DNA of 64,000 nucleotides from the human T2T-CHM13v2.0 reference genome, Homo sapiens, in the NCBI RefSeq assembly GCF_009914755.1, contig NC_060947.1. The stretch is one strand, 5' to 3'. This document shows positions 35,585-43,359 of the stretch, one piece after another. The translations under genes were made by a program, and so were the position numbers. The notes beneath the pieces are model-generated. The model saw only the letters and a program-made list of their open reading frames with translations, did not search any database and was not told the DNA's origin. Numbering within the stretch: position 1 is the first letter of the stretch; each line of letters begins with the position of its first letter.

Positions 35585-36075
35585 GAGCATATATATATAT
35601 ACAATGGAATATTATTTAGCCTTTGAAAAGAAGGAAATTCTGTCGTTGGTGACAATGTGGATGAACCTGGAGAATACTAGGCTAAGTCACATGAGCCAGG
35701 CACAGAAAGACAAATACTGTGTCATCTCACTTATATGTGGAATCTCAAAAAGTTGAACTCGTAGAACCAGACAGCAGATTGATGGTTGCCAGGAGCTGGG
35801 GATGGCGGGTAAGGGTGGTTGGGAGATGTTTGTCAAAGGACACAAAGTTTCAGTTAAACAGGAGGAAGAAATTCTGAGATCTGATATATAGCAGAACGAC
35901 TATAGTTGATAATAATGTATTGCATACTTGAAAATTCCTAAGACAGTAGGTCTTAAATGTTCACATCACAAAACAATGATAACTATGTAAGGCATAGGTA
36001 TGTTAATTAGCTTGATTTAATCATTTCCCATTGGGTATAGATATCAAAACATCATGTTGTACACCATTTTAAAAA
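33781..36075 (+). mobile_element. L1MA8/9-like 3' fragment, split by an LTR and a TA/CA microsatellite (35470-35600)
   Basis: ORF2 C-terminal remnants and an L1MA 3'UTR. Confidence 0.85.
34329..35038 (+). mobile_element. MER4-family solo LTR (ERV1)
   Basis: TG...CA ends, 4-bp TSD CAGG, MER4A-like motifs (aagatagctacaaagat, cctcacaatttgcccac). Confidence 0.85.
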
Positions 36076-36102
36076 GAAATTCTGATTATAAGAGACAGTG
36101 TG

Positions 36103-36192
36103 GTCTACAGCCATACCACCCTGAATGTGCCCAATCTTGTCTGATCTTGGAAGTGAAGCAGGGTTGGGCCTGGTTATTACTTGAATGGGAGA
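36103..36192 (+). pseudogene. 5S rRNA pseudogene (nt 1-90, 3' truncated, no poly(A) tail)
   Basis: gtctacagccataccaccctgaatgtgcccaatcttgtctgatcttggaag...ttgaatgggaga aligns to human 5S with CpG decay. Confidence 0.95.
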
Positions 36193-36519
36193 GTGTGTTC
36201 ACATGCTAACGTATAAAAAAGACCTACATGCCAAGAACACAGGAGAATTCACTGGCTAGACTGTGGGGAGTGTGAGAACCAAGGCAGCTTCACAGTTATG
36301 GCTACATTCTCTCCTCTGCCCTCCTATACTCTCCTTTCTTGCCCTCCTCTTTCCTTCCCATCCCTTTTTCTCCTCTGGCTTTCTTGTTAACTTTCTTCCC
36401 TCCGATTGGCTTTTTGTGCATATCCCACCTTCTTTCCCTCATTTTTTGTTTGCATTTGCATATGCTTCATCTTCACCCTGGATTGTTAACCCTCCTCTTC
36501 TTAGCTTGGATAGATTCTG

Positions 36520-36760
36520 TCTGCTTTTTTTAGAGTCTTCTCAGGTGCAGCCTTTTCCAGGTAGTTTCTTTTGATCCTCCAAGGCTGAGAGAAGTGACCA
36601 ACCTGTGAGCTCTCATGATAGCTAGTTCTAACTATTCCATCTTAAGTCTTTTCACTCTGTGTTATAATTGCCTGGCTATTTGTCTCTTTTCTCCACTGCA
36701 CTGTGAGCCCCTTAAAGGCAGGGATTCTTCCTTGTACCTCCAGTGCTTTACACAGAGCAT
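36520..36760 (+). mobile_element. L2 3' fragment
   Basis: ctgtgagccccttaaaggcaggga...ccagtgctttacacag motif. Confidence 0.55.
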
Positions 36761-36779
36761 GGAAAAAAATGGAAAAAAT

Positions 36780-37310
36780 ATAGACTTTTCCATTCCATCA
36801 ACATGGTATATTTTCTATTTCTTTACATTTTTAAAATGATTTTCCTTCAGTGTTTTTTTACTTTTTCACATACAGATCCTGCACATTTATGTTAGGTATA
36901 TGTGTAAGTACTTTTTAAACTTTTTTTCAATGCTATTGAAGATGATGTGTCTTCTTTCATTATTTTGGATTCAAATTTTTCATGGTTAGCATATAGGAAA
37001 TCAATTGACTTTTAAAATATTGACCTTGCTTCCTACAACCATGTTAATCTCTTTTTAAAAGTTATTTCCAGGAGTGTTTTATAGATAATTTAAAAGTTTC
37101 CACATAAATCATGTTGTCTATGAATGAAGGAAGTTCTATTTCTTCTTTGCCAATCTGTATGCCTGCTAGATATTTTTTCTCTTATTTATCTAGATTGGAC
37201 TTCCAGTACAAGATTGAGTAGTAGTGGTGAGATAAAGCATCCCTGCCTCAGTCTCTCACTCATCTTTTATTAGATTAAGGAAGCTCCCATGTATCCCTAG
37301 TTTTTGGAAA
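36780..37310 (-). mobile_element. Old L1M fragment
   Basis: Decayed antisense ORF2 (gtagtggtgagataaagcatccctgcct). Confidence 0.6.
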
Positions 37311-38076
37311 AGTAAGTTTTCTTGTTGTTGTTGTTGTTTATTTTGTTTTGTTTTATTTTTCCTTAAAAGGAATGTGTATTCACTCATCCAGTATTATAAC
37401 TATGTTTTTTTTTAATTAAGCTACTTTCAATAGATATATTGAGAAGGGTTTAGGATATTTAAAACTTTCTTAAATTTATTCTTAAAAGTGCTTTTAGAAT
37501 TTCACAAAAACTTTTGTAGTTCCCTAGTTATTATATATGCCAAAAATTTGCTTTTTAATATTCTATTTAAAAAATTCAATTAATAAAAATGAATAAGCTT
37601 GTTCTTTCAAGCAATTTTCTTCCGGTAACATACTTAGGTGCTTATTTTATGTCTCCTATAAAAGAAGTTGTGATAGCAGTTGAAAGCACGTTATGCCAAA
37701 TATATATTTTTGAGGGCTACTATTTTATACATGTTATAAAGCTATTCTCTTTGAGCACAAATAAACGAAGTGAGTAGCGTAAGTATTCAGATTCAATCTA
37801 TTTTACTAATCAAGAATTGTAACAGCTGCCTCACACAAATGTGACTAGATTACTTGTTTTCCTTCAGAAATGAAGAATTTAAGTAGCTTTCATCAGAATA
37901 ATGAAATAGAAACCCAAGAGCTAGTTCCCACAGATACTAGGGTTCATAGAATAAGAGTTAGCTTTACCTCCACAGTCTCCACAGGAATAACACAGAACAA
38001 AACTCACTACCATTCATTGGCTAACTGAATATTATTTTTAAAGTTAAATTTAATTAAACCTGTAACACATATATAT

Positions 38077-38273
38077 GACCCTCATGCACTCAAAAATGTG
38101 TGTACAACTTTTGACTCTGTAAAAACTTAACTACTAATAGCGTATTATTGACCAGCAGCCTTAGAAATAATATAAACAGTTAATTAATATATATTTTGTA
38201 TGTTATATGAATTAAATACTGTTATTCTTAAAGTAAGCTAGAGAGAGGAAAATGTTATTAAGAAAATCATAAG
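38077..38273 (-). mobile_element. Tigger2a (MER28), left part
   Basis: caactttttgactctgtaaaaacttaactactaatagc...gttattaagaaaatcataag. Confidence 0.85.
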
Positions 38274-39250
38274 GGGCTTAAGATGGTAGCTCTGGATTGG
38301 GGTGGCTAGTGACTGGGGAGGCACTGAGGAGGCGTGGGACCATGGTGGCAGCCAAGAAGTGGAGTCCAGAGAATGGAGAAGAGGAGGAATTGAAGGCAGA
38401 GATGTTGATTCCAGTAGAATTGTCAGGATTTTCTCAAAATGTGAAAATAGATGCAAGATTTGGAGAATTTACAACGAGAGGCCCATTCTGCAAGTGGACA
38501 GCTATCTCTTTGCTGGGGAGTACAAAGACACTCTTGGGACCTATGCTATATTTGAAGAAAATGTTGAAAATGTAGATGCAGAAGGCAATAATAAAACAGT
38601 GCTAAAATATAAATGCCATACAATGAAGAAGCTCAGCATGGTAACTCTTCTGACAGAAAAGAAGGAAGGAGAAGAAAATATAGGTGGGATGGAATGACTG
38701 ATAATCAGGAAAATGATTTCTCCTATAGACCCAAAATGATTTGTAGCCTTCTACATAAAAATGAAGATGAAGAAGTAGGTAGCTTCAACTCCAGATAAAC
38801 TTTTGGAGGTGGAAGAGCAAGAGATTAAAGTGGAAGAGCAAGAGATTCAAATGGAAGTTAGTTCAAACCTGAGTTATGGACAGGAGAAACCACTGCACTT
38901 GGAAATAGAGGTTTCTGGTTATGTTGCTGACATCTCTTCTAAAACAGAAGGTTCTGTTTTTATGGAAACTTAAAATGCTGCCTTACAAACCACTCCTAGA
39001 TAAAATGGTTCCCATAATAACTAGTCATGATATTTTTGAAGTTTTTATATAAAAATAATTGGCTTTGTAGCTTTCAATTGTTACTATTTTGTCATTTTTG
39101 TTGGCTAAACACACATTTCCAGTTATAGCACAACTTAATATACCAGAATCATTCAGGATCAGACATGAATTGAACTTTAAAAAATATAGTTTAAATGACT
39201 TTAGGGACCCTTCTTTGATAACTCCTTTAAATTTGAGGTTTTATTAAGGT
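38274..39250 (+). pseudogene. GTF3C6P: Processed pseudogene of GTF3C6 (TFIIIC 35-kDa subunit): 5'UTR, CDS ~38342-38986, 3'UTR
   Basis: Intronless. MVAAKKWSPENGEEEE...VELSG / SKCENRCK...ERPILQVDSYLFAGEYKDTLGTYAIFEENVE...KYKCHTMKKLSM...TEGSVFMET match GTF3C6. Frameshift near 38430 and stop at 38695-38697. The paralog number cannot be determined from sequence. Confidence 0.93.
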
Positions 39251-39255
39251 AAATG

Positions 39256-39864
39256 TGTATATTTTCTATTGTAAATGTTACAAATTACCACAAAGTCAGT
39301 ATCTTAAAACAGCACAAATATATTGTCTTAAAGTTTTATAGGTCAGAAATCTGACATGAGTCTCATCTGAGCTAAAATAAAAATATTGTCAGGACTGCTT
39401 TCCTTTTTGGAGGCTCTGGCGGTAGGGGTAGAAGGATGAATCCATTTTCTTGCTTATCAGTTGTTGGAAGAATTCAATTATTTGCAGTTGAAGGATCAAG
39501 GTCCCACTTCCTTGCTGTCTGTCAGCTGAGGGCCATTTCTAGTTTACAGAGGCGGTCCACATTTCTTGGCTCATGGCCCCCTTGTTTTCAGAGCCAGCAA
39601 TAGTAGGTCAAGTCCCTCTCACATTTTGAATCTTTCCTGTTGCTTCATCCATCATCCATCTCTCTGACCTACCCCTGTCTTCCACTTCCACTTTTAAAGG
39701 TCCATTTGATTACATTGGGCCTACTCAGATAATCTCCCTATTTTAAGATCTGTAACCTTAATTCCATCTACAAAGTCCCTTTGGCATTTAACTTAACATA
39801 CACAGGCATAAAACCAGGGATTAGGGCGTGGAAATATTGGGGTGCCATTTTTCAGTCTACCACA
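39256..39864 (-). mobile_element. MLT1 (MLT1E-like) LTR
   Basis: acaaattaccacaaa...ttaaaacagcacaaat ... cagtctaccaca. Confidence 0.8.
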
Positions 39865-40409
39865 ATAAGTATCTTATCTAGGAACAAAAAATAATTTTGA
39901 AGTGCTTAAGGATAAAGGTACAATTCCCAATATGTCCGTTGTGATTTCACTCCTTTCCCACTTAATGAAGATTATTGAAACTAAACTGTAATAGTTATTT
40001 TATTACGGCAGCAACCTAAATCTGTGCTAATTTGTATTTTTAAGTAAATTATTCACAAACTGTGATGCTTTGTAATAGATTAGGTTTATGAAATTTCCAA
40101 TATGCAATTGTTTCTGACTAAGAAAACCAGCGATTTCATACAGTTTAACCTAGAACTAATAAGTTAAAATGCATCTCATATCAATTACATCTCATAATTG
40201 ATGGCGATGTAAATGTTCTTGCAGGTTAGAGAACTAATGTTCTAGGATGATAATTTCTTATTTGAAAAGTTTTACTATTTAATTGGAAAATAACTTACCT
40301 TGATGAAAAGCACTTTCAAATCATAAGCACATGTATCTTCCCAGTTTTTATGACTTTTTTAGTCTCAGCTTTTTAATAAAAAGCTCATTTTTCCCACCAT
40401 GTGTATGCG

Positions 40410-40755
40410 TAGGAGAGATTTCTAATTGAAGGACCCAATATCTGTTCTTCCTTTATCTCTTTGTAACAGAATCTGTGAATTTATTCAGGTCAGCACTATA
40501 TACCCGACTTTTCTTGCAAGTACCTGTGACCATATGACTAAGTTCTGGCCACTGGCAGGGACTTAGAAGTGTTGAGTGATGCTTTTGGGAAGTTTTCTAC
40601 ACATTCTCTTTGTTCCTCATGGGACATGAATATGGTGGCTAGAGCTCTAGCAGGATTCTTGGGCTTTAAAGAAACCTTGGAAACAGAAGCCATGAGTGGC
40701 AGAGCAACAAGATAGAAGATTGGGTCCTGATACTGTGAGACAGCCCTGGACTGCT
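40410..40755 (+). mobile_element. MLT1J/I-like LTR, 5' part; 3' part at ~41683-41776
   Basis: tgtgaccatatgactaagttctggcc; ccctggactgc|ccatctctggccttcttttacatgagagagaaataaa. Confidence 0.65.
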
Positions 40756-40769
40756 ATTAGTAAAGGTAC

Positions 40770-41003
40770 GATAATGAGGTATGATTGATATGCAAAAACT
40801 GCACATATTTATCATATACAACTTCATGTGTTTAGACATACAAACACCAGTAATAACCTCACCATAATCAAGGTAATAGACATATCTAACACCTCCCAAA
40901 ATGTCCTCATGTACCTTTGTTTTTATTCTTTTTTATTTTTTGTTTGTCTTTTTTTGTGGTAAGAACATTTGACACGATATCTACCGTCTGAATACATTTA
41001 AGT
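40770..41003 (-). mobile_element. L1MA/MB 3'UTR fragment
   Basis: accataatcaaggtaatagacatatctaacacctcccaaaa. Confidence 0.65.
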
Positions 41004-41933
41004 TCTAGAAACCTGCCATGCAACATAATGTCTATATTAGCAATAAGATATTATGTACTGTATAAATTCTTCAAAGAGAATATCCAGACCAAAAGAGAAT
41101 ATCCAGACCCTTTCACTTTATCCCTGGTTAAAATGACCTTGAGTTTACCTTTCAGCACTATTTCTCTAGACTCCTGCTAGGCAAAATAATAATGAAATGT
41201 CAGCTGTGATACCAGGCAATATTGTTTATGATTGAAAATGACCCTTTCTTGGTAAACTGTATCTGGACCAGGAAGATTGTGACAAGTACTATAAATGCCT
41301 ATTGGAAAACACGGACTTTGGAATTCCGTAAATTCCTTAAATATGAAGTTGCTTATTGCAAAGATCCCTAGAAGCTAAACTCATTGGCTGTTTCAAGAGA
41401 TAGCTGTTCTCATACAGCATGAAGCTTCTAAACCAGGTGGTTTCTGCACCAACCCAGATGATCTGATTTACTTATACCTGAGCTGACGCTTGGAAAGGTG
41501 GAGTAAAGACTCCTGCTGAAACCACCTCAGGCTACCATGCTGTTGTGCTGTTTCTTGTTGGTATTCTGCAAAATTAAGTGAGCCTGGTGAAAAGTCGGGT
41601 TCCATAGGCTTATTAGGTCTTGTGAGCATGAACATCATTCCAAACCTGTAACTACTGCTGCTGTTCAGAGAAGGCATTGCCACTGCCCATCTCTGGCCTT
41701 CTTTTACATGAGAGAGAAATAAAGTTCTCTCCTGTTTAAATCACTTTGTAAGAGCACCACTTAATCCTAATTGATATGTATGTATTTTAGAAAATATCAA
41801 AAATGTAAAAAAATGTATAAAGTAGAAGATTCTTGAGATTTGTAATCTTGCAAAAGAAACTGATGTAGATTATAATGTAGTCCTTCTACCTTAAATTGAA
41901 GAGAAAAATAAAGTCTTAAATTCAGAAAAAAAG

Positions 41934-42140
41934 AGAAAGTCATAAGAAAGATAAATATATTTACTATTCATTAAGTGGAAGTGGATCGTCATAAAGGTCT
42001 TCATCCTCATCGTCTTCACCTTGAGTAGGCTGAGGAGGAGGCAGAAGAGAAAGGGTTGGTCTTGCTGGTCTCAGGGTGGTAGAGGTGGAAGAAAATTCAT
42101 GTATAAATGGACCTGCCCAGTTCAAGCCTATGTTATTCAA
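41934..42140 (-). mobile_element. Tigger2a (MER28), right part
   Basis: atatatttactattcattaagtggaagtggatc...ggacctgcccagttcaagcctatgttattcaa; joins 38273 seamlessly. Confidence 0.88.
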
Positions 42141-43359
42141 TTTTTCTCTTCCACCCACTGCTGTAAGATTCTTAAAAAGTAGACAAAATAAATGATATAA
42201 ATCTTTTTTGTAGACAATTAATGAGCAAAACATCAGATCTTTTGGTTCTAAAATGTTAGTTCTCTTAATAATTTGTTTTAAATATAAGTAGAAGGTTAAA
42301 TTCTCCACAAAGTAAAATTGGATATAATTAATTTTATAGGTTAATTCAACCTTAACTAATTTAAGTTTGAATGATTGGAAAGTCTTTAGTTTTTTGAGAT
42401 TCTTTTTTGAAAAGTGCCCTCATTTGAAATTATTTCTAAAGTTTTGTTTTAATTCCTCTGATCCTCTATTATAATATCTCTATATCTTTTGTCTTATATC
42501 CTCAGATTTTCTCAGCCAACCATTCCAAAATGATATATTTGAAAGCCATTATTAGTTTTCCTGCTTGATCACACGATTATTGCCATTATTAATTTCAGCA
42601 ATATAAAATTTAGCAGAAGAAATTGAGAACTAATCAAGAGGAAATGTTTCAGATTCTGGCACATTGAAAACCTTGAGTATATATTCATTTGGACATTACA
42701 GATTTAAGGTGTGCAACTTTCATTAATATTTGGTAATGCCTTTTCTTATATCCCAGGTATTGAAGTTGACACCCATAACACAGAGTGATCAAGCCGAGCA
42801 TCAAAAAGCATAAGACAATTTAATTTACACACCAAGAGTTTTACTGTGTTTACCAGGTAAATAATCAGGTTTGGTGTGTGACAAAGAGTTGGCAGTTGAA
42901 ACTTTTTTTATGTATTAACATGCAAAAATGTTATCTACTGTCCGAACTATTCCACAACATACCAAATATAATGGTAATCAGGCAGAACAACTAGTTTTAC
43001 CTATCTATATTCAATGCAACTTTGGTCAGAAATGTAATGGAAGCCAGAGGAATTATTTTAATGATGCTTGCCCAATGCCTTGAATTTCAATAACACCCTT
43101 TTTGTGAGAAGTGTAAGGCTCCATTTGTCTTTAAAGAATTCAAATATGTGCAGCATGGCGTGAGTCTTAAAGGACTTAGAAAATTTGGAATGTTAAAGAA
43201 GTGTTTATTGGAACATAGGAAAGCTAAATTCCAAGCCATGACCTCCTTTTTCATTTCCTTGTCCCTACTAGCACTACTGAGAAGCACAGCTGGCCCTACA
43301 TAGGAAGAAAAAAAAAATGTGACTTAGATGCTATGGACATTTTTTTAAAAGTGTCTCCA

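What the first reader, a model, noticed from the sequence alone, without database searches (positions are those of the whole stretch)
38261..41946. GTF3C6 retrocopy seems to have brought ~2.7 kb of extra 3' sequence, placing ancient LTRs inside a younger transposon
Seen: the two halves of one Tigger2a (ending 38273, resuming 41934) are separated by 3.66 kb bounded by a 13-bp TSD AGAAA(A/G)TCATAAG. The insert starts at the GTF3C6 5'UTR and ends with AATAAA (41907-41912), 13 nt, and a short A-run (41926-41932). It contains MLT1E- and MLT1J-like LTRs. Established: those MLT1 families predate Tigger2a, so they could not have jumped into it independently. Inference: one L1-mediated event copied a long-3'UTR or read-through GTF3C6 transcript (or a transcribed earlier retrocopy plus its flank), preserving an ancestral distal poly(A) isoform.
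Basis: partly seen in the sequence, partly recalled or inferred. Interest (0 to 1): 0.75.

Follow-up and report, generated by a model that had tools for sequence, protein, structure and literature searches.

The report
Full-length GTF3C6 retrocopy with long 3'UTR
This is an ordinary but unusually complete processed pseudogene: an ancient GTF3C6 messenger RNA with a multi-kilobase tail was copied into an old DNA transposon, and it records a far-downstream poly(A) site of the parent gene.

Summary
Window 38274-41933 is one insert between a 13-nt target-site duplication (12 of 13 identical). It splits one copy of a multi-copy Tigger-like repeat: in 24 of 29 other genomic copies the two halves are contiguous and share exactly those 13 nt.

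The whole insert is colinear with the six exons of the chr6 gene plus the sequence downstream of its last exon. Homology ends 13-14 nt after an AATAAA that is still intact in the parent. The MLT1-like repeat sits at the same place in the parent, so it was carried in the transcript.

The genome holds only two other retrocopies. The chr7 copy ends at the same nucleotide with its own duplication. The chrX:105.57 Mb copy ends 27 nt after an intermediate ATTAAA. All 3 of 3 therefore derive from long-3'UTR mRNAs. They differ in age (K2P to parent 0.222, 0.185, 0.044) and carry none, one (a half-length, Alu-monomer-like segment), and at least five of the parent's Alu-type segments.

About 2.5 kb was carried. 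Positions 40767-41108 are a later 342-bp patch, 96% identical to chr5. This is a known kind of event, and the RefSeq pseudogene span understates it by 2.9 kb.

The parts
38076..38273 (.). Left half of the interrupted Tigger-like repeat copy.
   Evidence: 39 non-self matches at 79-85%, starting at query 37-67, which is window 38076-38106; contiguous with the right half in 24 of 29 other copies.
38261..38273 (+). 5' copy of the target-site duplication, AGAAAATCATAAG.
   Evidence: these 13 nt occur once in uninterrupted copies.
38274..41933 (+). Full-length processed retrocopy of a long-3'UTR GTF3C6 mRNA. The RefSeq GTF3C6P1 span covers only 38277-39069.
   Evidence: six parent exons spread over about 9 kb of chr6 are joined here without introns. 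Colinear to the distal poly(A) site.
38342..38973 (+). Disabled coding region. The ATG is at 38342. The frame shifts between the stretch that opens at 38282 and the one that opens at 38290. There are in-frame stops at 38695-38697 and 38796-38798, and a 21-nt tandem duplication at 38809-38850 that the parent lacks.
   Evidence: (TFIIIC_sub6, E 5.9e-11).
39046..39069 (+). Position of the proximal poly(A) region, where the RefSeq-derived pseudogene span ends. The window has TATAAA here and the parent has CATAAA. All three retrocopies read through it.
   Evidence: plus the hub annotation.
39070..40766 (+). First part of the carried 3' extension, colinear with chr6:112146497-112150522 once the parent's later Alu insertions are removed.
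39254..39868 (+). Ancient dispersed repeat (MLT1-like; name untested), carried inside the 3'UTR.
   Evidence: 19 other loci at 66-73%; the same repeat at the same place in the parent, in chr7 and in chrX:105.57 Mb.
40767..41108 (+). Later 342-bp patch, not part of the transcript. It replaces 12 nt (GTTAATAAAAYC in the parent, chr7 and chrX:105.57 Mb), has no duplication of the target, and carries a 15-19 nt local repeat at its right junction. Positions 40774-41094 are 96% identical to chr5:28800290-28800610.
41109..41925 (+). Second part of the carried 3' extension, up to the cleavage site.
41236..41241 (+). ATTGAA, at the position of the intermediate ATTAAA signal of the parent and of chr7. 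The younger chrX:105.57 Mb retrocopy used that signal.
41907..41912 (+). Distal AATAAA poly(A) signal.
   Evidence: The same hexamer is intact in the parent (about chr6:112152065-112152070) and in chr7.
41926..41933 (+). Remnant of the poly(A) tail (AAAAAAAG).
   Evidence: The parent continues with CGAAAAC at this point.
41934..41946 (+). 3' copy of the target-site duplication, AGAAAGTCATAAG.
41934..42140 (.). Right half of the interrupted Tigger-like repeat copy.
   Evidence: matches reach query 207 of the right half, which is window 42140.

Best explanation
Shown:
- A capped, spliced, polyadenylated GTF3C6 mRNA of about 3.3 kb was reverse-transcribed and inserted into a resident Tigger-like transposon copy on the X chromosome. 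The insertion made a 13-bp target-site duplication.
- The mRNA ran from the gene's start site through all six exons. It passed a weak proximal signal and an intermediate ATTAAA, and ended at a canonical AATAAA about 2.5 kb (ancestral length) beyond the proximal site.
- Its 3'UTR already contained an old LTR-type repeat, which is why an older repeat now lies inside a younger transposon.
- The distal site was used repeatedly: a second retrocopy on chr7 ends at the same nucleotide. A third, much younger one (chrX:105.57 Mb) ends at the intermediate site.

Inferred:
- L1 endonuclease and reverse transcriptase did the copying.
- The event dates to roughly the origin of primates.
- Long-3'UTR isoforms were the main germline forms.

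The copy is a dead pseudogene with no sign of function.
For: Intron loss and colinearity:
- Window 38277-41932 aligns in order to chr6 exons at 112137331, 112137843, 112139039, 112139192 and 112141016, and to the last exon from 112146125. It continues in order to 112152090. The exon set is confirmed with the younger copy as query.

3' ends:
- Parent: ...GGAAAATAAAATCTTAAATTCTGA then CGAAAAC.
- Window: ...AAAAATAAAGTCTTAAATTCAGA then AAAAAAG, then the duplication.
- chr7: ...GGAAAATAAAGTCTTAAATTCTGA then AGGGAAAAAAAG, then its own 16-nt duplication (14 of 16).
- The parent-chr7 alignment stops at chr6:112152084.

5' ends:
- The 5' ends of the window copy and the chrX:105.57 Mb copy fall within about 4 nt of each other in parent exon 1.

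Target site:
- The duplication and the empty-site test are positive in 24 of 29 paralogous repeat copies.

Copy number:
- The genome holds only three retrocopies plus the parent (7 of 7 candidates scored). All 3 of 3 extend far beyond the proximal site.

Ages (1652 columns shared by all four):
- K2P window-parent 0.222, chr7-parent 0.185, chrX:105.57 Mb-parent 0.044.
- 97 sites split (window, chr7) against (parent, chrX:105.57 Mb); the other two splits have 8 and 1.

Stratigraphy:
- An Alu-monomer-like segment of about 125 nt is shared by the parent and chr7. It is precisely absent from the window copy, which has a single target site there.
- The chrX:105.57 Mb copy shares at least five Alu-like segments with the parent, in alignments of 89-95%.
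Against: - The poly(A) remnant is only seven A.
- The target (TTA|AGAAAA) fits the L1 endonuclease preference only loosely.
- No transcript, 3'-end sequencing or annotation data for chr6 could be consulted. Present-day use of the distal site, and whether it is already annotated, are unknown.
- The extension shows no purifying selection. Parent-lineage changes run at 0.047-0.102 per site, against 0.041-0.091 in the dead chr7 copy. The long 3'UTR need not be functional.
- No other species could be examined, so the empty site is inferred from paralogous repeat copies, not from an orthologue.
Confidence: 0.93

Rival explanations
1. The long transcript was an accidental read-through past the normal poly(A) site, not a regular isoform. 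The retrocopy would then preserve a one-off aberrant RNA.
For: The proximal site is where the RefSeq-derived pseudogene span ends (hub annotation). The extension evolves at the neutral rate in the parent lineage.
Against: Two independent retrocopies of different age end at the same nucleotide after a canonical AATAAA. A third extends 4.2 kb (present-day length) to an ATTAAA. None of the 3 retrocopies ends at the proximal site. The proximal hexamer is a weak variant: CATAAA in the parent and TATAAA in the window.
Confidence: 0.05
2. An earlier retrocopy was transcribed together with its genomic flank and copied again, so the 3' extension is foreign flank rather than GTF3C6 sequence.
For: None found.
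Against: The extension is colinear with the parent gene's own downstream DNA on chr6, up to the cleavage site. The three retrocopies have unrelated flanks and separate duplications.
Confidence: 0.01
3. A short retrocopy inserted first, and the LTR-type repeats and other sequence entered it later by independent insertions or by a DNA-level duplication.
For: One piece, 40767-41108, really is a later insertion.
Against: Everything else is shared in the same order with the parent and with the other retrocopies that reach it, including the MLT1-like repeat. A single duplication brackets the whole 3.66 kb.
Confidence: 0.01

Closest known systems
L1-mediated processed pseudogenes (retrocopies) used as fossils of past transcripts
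   Same: It is an intronless copy of a multi-exon gene. It starts at the transcription start, ends in a poly(A) remnant after AATAAA, is flanked by a target-site duplication, and has a disabled reading frame. A review that I read in passages names the poly(A) tail and the duplications as the signatures (PMC5470649). The 'genomic fossils' idea of Shemesh et al. 2006 I saw only as an entry in that review's reference list. The paper is not held, so its content is recalled.
   Different: Nothing in kind. The particular points are a carried 3'UTR about three times longer than the annotated pseudogene, and three retrocopies of different age that all record long-3'UTR forms.
L1 3' transduction
   Same: A retrotransposed RNA carries downstream genomic sequence because a weak proximal poly(A) signal was bypassed in favour of a stronger distal one (passage in PMC5470649).
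   Different: Here the RNA is a cellular mRNA mobilised in trans, not an L1. The 'extra' sequence is the gene's own alternative 3'UTR.
Processed pseudogenes made from mRNAs with Alu elements embedded in the 3'UTR (PMC5199112; listing abstract and three passages seen; GTF3C6 occurs 0 times in its main text)
   Same: The youngest copy (chrX:105.57 Mb) was made from a GTF3C6 mRNA whose 3'UTR held at least five Alu-like segments.
   Different: The window copy was made before any Alu-type segment had entered the 3'UTR, so Alu content cannot explain its formation.

Membership tests
L1-mediated processed pseudogene | Intronless copy of a spliced multi-exon parent | tested here: met
   six chr6 exons spread over about 9 kb are contiguous in the window.
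L1-mediated processed pseudogene | 3' end at a poly(A) site with an A-tail that is not encoded in the parent | tested here: met
   AATAAA, 13-14 nt, then A7G. The parent has CGAAAAC at that point.
L1-mediated processed pseudogene | Target-site duplication bracketing the insert, present once at the empty site | tested here: met
   (12 of 13). (24 of 29 paralogous copies have the 13 nt once, with the halves contiguous). No orthologous empty site could be examined.
L1-mediated processed pseudogene | Target resembling the L1 endonuclease site (TT|AAAA on the top strand; recalled) | tested here: inconclusive
   the pre-insertion sequence is TTA|AGAAAATC. It is A-rich after a T-rich stretch but not the consensus.
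L1-mediated processed pseudogene | Loss of coding capacity | tested here: met
   a frame shift and stops; only a partial TFIIIC_sub6 match.
Alternative polyadenylation isoform of GTF3C6 (distal site) | Canonical signal in the parent gene at the place where the retrocopy ends | tested here: met
   AATAAA is intact at about chr6:112152065-112152070.
Alternative polyadenylation isoform of GTF3C6 (distal site) | Repeated, independent use of the same cleavage site | tested here: met
   the window and chr7 copies end at the same nucleotide and have different duplications.
Alternative polyadenylation isoform of GTF3C6 (distal site) | Use of the site in present-day human transcripts | not testable with these tools
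   No transcript or poly(A)-site data are on hand. Literature searches found nothing relevant.
Tigger2a (non-autonomous Tc1/mariner-type DNA transposon) | Both flanks belong to one multi-copy family and are adjacent in other copies | tested here: met
Tigger2a (non-autonomous Tc1/mariner-type DNA transposon) | Match to the family consensus (Repbase/Dfam) | not testable with these tools
No repeat library is on hand.
MLT1 (MaLR LTR) elements inside the insert | Ancient dispersed repeat, more diverged than the host transposon family | tested here: inconclusive
   39254-39868: 19 loci at 66-73%, against 79-85% for the Tigger-like family. This is consistent, but both sets are best-of-many samples. 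41247-41800: no dispersed family found. Family names are untestable here.

The most novel reading that the evidence does not exclude
For roughly the whole of primate evolution the germline form of GTF3C6 mRNA carried a multi-kilobase 3'UTR. It ended at sites 4.2 and 5.6 kb (present-day length) beyond the end implied by the RefSeq-derived pseudogene span.

The three retrocopies form a dated series that shows this 3'UTR growing from about 2.5 kb to about 5.6 kb. The copies carry 0, then 1, then at least 5 of the Alu-type segments now in the parent, which holds about 10. Meanwhile the parent lost about 60 nt that all three copies still keep.

If the distal site is still used but missing from gene models, the human GTF3C6 annotation is incomplete.
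Probability: 0.4. Interest if true: 0.3.

Novelty: new member of a known kind. Interest (0 to 1): 0.22.

Why it matters
It matters mainly for annotation.
- GTF3C6P1 is 3.66 kb long, not 0.79 kb.
- The apparent paradox of an older LTR-type repeat inside a younger transposon has a simple explanation.
- GTF3C6 has, or had, strong distal poly(A) sites that its retrocopies document.

As a worked example, it shows how a set of retrocopies of different age can date the Alu insertions and deletions in a parent gene's 3'UTR. It opens no new question about mechanism.

Tried and rejected
- Literature: 'GTF3C6' with 'alternative polyadenylation' gave one unrelated paper. 'GTF3C6P1/P2/P3' gave 0 papers. 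These searches cover main texts only, not supplements. Shemesh et al. 2006 is not held.
- An Rfam scan of 36000-43000 found only the annotated 5S pseudogene at 36106-36214 and nothing inside the insert. An embedded small-RNA gene therefore does not explain the long transcript.
- I searched for the rest of the 3'UTR downstream of the chrX:105.57 Mb copy, in about 11.8 kb downstream. Nothing was found. That copy truly ends at the ATTAAA site and is not interrupted.
- I looked for purifying selection on the extension and found none.
- I considered that the 342-bp patch came from template switching during the original reverse transcription. I rejected this because the patch is 96% identical to its chr5 relative, while the retrocopy is about 80% identical to its parent, so the patch is much younger.
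- MAFFT aligned unrelated Alu elements of chr7 and the parent to each other around chr6:112149455-112150011. I did not count these as shared, because BLAST gives only 65-75% there and partly on the opposite strand.
Full report
**1. The observation**

Read directly:
- The 13-mers AGAAAATCATAAG (38261-38273) and AGAAAGTCATAAG (41934-41946) differ at one position.
- Between them lie 3660 nt (38274-41933).
- That stretch ends with AATAAA (41907-41912), 13 nt, seven A (41926-41932) and a G.

To test whether the flanks are two halves of one repeat copy, I searched the genome with the left half (38040-38273).
- The first look gave 2518 candidates. 40 were scored, and the 39 non-self matches were 79-85% identical.
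- I then blasted both halves against the 29 fetched copies.
- In 24 of 29 the right half begins so that it overlaps the end of the left half by exactly 13 nt, once alignment ends trimmed by 1-3 nt are taken into account.
- In 3 of 29 the halves are 133-628 bp apart, because of other insertions.
- In 2 of 29 there is no right half on the same strand.

So the 13 nt occur once in uninterrupted copies, and the duplication is real. I could not test the name Tigger2a, because no repeat library is available.

**2. What the insert is**

A whole-genome search with the insert and local BLAST show that window 38277-41932 aligns, in order and on one strand, to chr6.
- Exon pieces lie at 112137331-442, 112137843-882, 112139039-094, 112139192-238 and 112141016-129.
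- From 112146125 the alignment runs through the last exon and on through downstream sequence to 112152090.
- Using the youngest retrocopy as query gives the same six exons at 82-100% identity; five of the six are at 96-100%, and exon 1 is at 82%.
- A 135-aa reading-frame piece matches Pfam TFIIIC_sub6 (E 5.9e-11).
- The frame is broken by a shift and by stops.

The stretches present only in the parent are Alu-like units of about 300 bp. I recognise them from the recalled Alu sequence and from their mutual similarity. They are not removed introns.

**3. The 3' end**

One search gives the ends:
- Parent: ...GGAAAATAAAATCTTAAATTCTGA followed by CGAAAAC.
- Window copy: the same sequence (TTCAGA) followed by AAAAAAG and the duplication.
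- chr7 copy (29689296-29693703): the same sequence followed by AGGGAAAAAAAG and its own duplication, AAGMAGCMTATAATCC (14 of 16).

The parent-chr7 alignment stops at chr6:112152084. Two independent events therefore used the same cleavage site 13-14 nt after a canonical hexamer that is still intact in the human gene.

**4. The third retrocopy**

- chrX:105568114-105572229 starts within about 4 nt of the window copy's 5' end in exon 1.
- It ends 27 nt after an ATTAAA, 16 nt into an Alu-like segment of the parent.
- It is followed by AAAAATAAATAAATAAATAAATAA and a probable duplication GAGAATGYAG.
- No further 3'UTR sequence lies in the next ~11.8 kb.
- The ATTAAA is also present in chr7 but reads ATTGAA in the window.

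A search with the 895-nt 5' part of this copy found only the parent and the three retrocopies, with 7 of 7 candidates scored. So 3 of 3 retrocopies derive from long-3'UTR mRNAs, and none ends at the proximal site. The proximal hexamer is a weak variant, CATAAA in the parent and TATAAA in the window. That these are weak variants is recalled knowledge.

**5. The old repeat inside the younger transposon**

- Window 39254-39868 matches 19 other loci at 66-73%, as expected of an ancient dispersed repeat.
- The same repeat sits at the same place in the parent (window 39182-39744 against chr6:112147217-761, 79%) and in both other retrocopies.
- It was therefore part of the transcript. This settles the nesting paradox directly.
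- The second 'MLT1J-like' stretch (41247-41800) is also shared with the parent and chr7. It found no dispersed family: 10 candidates, of which 7 were short hits. Its repeat nature stays open.

**6. Relative ages**

K2P distances on the 1652 columns where all four sequences align:

| Pair | K2P |
|---|---|
| window - parent | 0.222 |
| window - chr7 | 0.210 |
| window - chrX:105.57 Mb | 0.211 |
| chr7 - parent | 0.185 |
| chr7 - chrX:105.57 Mb | 0.183 |
| parent - chrX:105.57 Mb | 0.044 |

- Singleton differences: 148 (window), 111 (chr7), 27 (parent), 21 (chrX:105.57 Mb).
- 97 sites group (window, chr7) against (parent, chrX:105.57 Mb). The two other splits have 8 and 1.
- This fits three separate copies taken from one evolving parent, in the order window, chr7, chrX:105.57 Mb.

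Insertions agree with that order.
- An Alu-monomer-like segment of about 125 nt (chr6:112151848-968) is shared by the parent and chr7. It is precisely absent from the window copy, which has one copy of the target there.
- The chrX:105.57 Mb copy shares at least five Alu-like segments with the parent, inside alignments of 89-95%.
- The parent has at least four more.
- About 60 nt (window 39897-39954) are kept by all three copies but lost from the parent.

Coding exons are 91-92% identical to the parent, while the 3'UTR is about 80%. This fits roughly 9-10% change on the pseudogene lineage. Using recalled primate neutral rates, I infer an age near the base of primates for the window copy. By the same reasoning the youngest copy would be about 15-25 million years old. 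These dates are inference only.

**7. Selection**

Counting changes by lineage along the extension, parent-only changes run at 0.047-0.102 per site. The dead chr7 copy shows 0.041-0.091. The long 3'UTR as a whole shows no purifying selection.

**8. A later patch**

- Window 40767-41108 is absent from the parent, chr7 and chrX:105.57 Mb. It replaces 12 nt that all three share (GTTAATAAAAYC).
- It has no flanking duplication and no A-tail beyond AAAA. It carries a 15-19 nt repeat at its right junction (D13).
- Positions 40774-41094 are 96% identical to chr5:28800290-28800610. The 38 other scored copies of that repeat family are 71-84% identical and cover only about the first 230 nt (40 of 396 candidates scored).
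- On chr5 the family homology also ends near 28800515, with an inverted piece up to 575. The patch therefore shares with chr5 some sequence beyond the common repeat.
- I read this as a much later copy of chr5-like DNA or RNA into a break, with a small deletion. The mechanism is not established.
- So the mRNA carried about 2.5 kb of extra 3' sequence, not about 2.7-2.9 kb.

**9. Comparison with what is known**

This is a standard L1-type processed pseudogene. The signatures are named in a review that I read in passages (PMC5470649). Using such copies as records of past transcripts is an established idea. I saw Shemesh et al. 2006 only as a reference entry, so its content is recalled. No paper in the library names GTF3C6P1, P2 or P3. 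The one paper holding both 'GTF3C6' and 'alternative polyadenylation' is unrelated.

New here:
- the true extent of GTF3C6P1;
- the shared distal site;
- the three-step series.

I could not see gene models or poly(A) data for chr6, so the distal isoform may already be annotated.

**10. Verdict**

This is a new member of a known kind, of low to moderate interest.

Noticed in passing
window 40767-41108: A 342-bp patch lies inside the retrocopy and is absent from the parent and both other copies. It replaces 12 nt, has no target duplication, and is 96% identical to chr5:28800290-28800610. Other members of that old repeat family are only 71-84% identical. It looks like a later capture of chr5-like sequence at a break.
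   Followed up: partly
window 41073-41109: AAAGAGAATATCCAGACC occurs twice, 19 nt apart, at the right junction of the patch. The first copy is shared with chr5 and the second is not.
   Followed up: partly
window 38809-38850: A 21-nt tandem duplication (GTGGAAGAGCAAGAGATTMAA, two copies) lies in the dead coding region. The parent and the other two retrocopies lack it.
   Followed up: partly
L015/L017: chrX:105568114-105572229: A second X-linked GTF3C6 retrocopy is only 4% diverged from the parent on the backbone. It carries at least five of the parent's 3'UTR Alu-like segments and ends at an intermediate ATTAAA site, 16 nt into a further Alu-like segment.
   Followed up: yes
L014: chr7:29689296-29693703: A third GTF3C6 retrocopy is 5'-truncated by about 57 nt. 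It ends at the same distal cleavage site, has its own 16-nt duplication, and holds three later Alu-like insertions of its own.
   Followed up: yes
L012/L013: chr6:~112149144: The parent gene's 3' region lacks about 60 nt that all three retrocopies keep (window 39897-39954). This is a deletion in the parent lineage after the youngest copy was made.
   Followed up: partly
window 36106-36214: There is a 5S rRNA match at the gathering threshold (41.1 bits), corresponding to the annotated RNA5SP510 pseudogene. It is unrelated to the finding.
   Followed up: no
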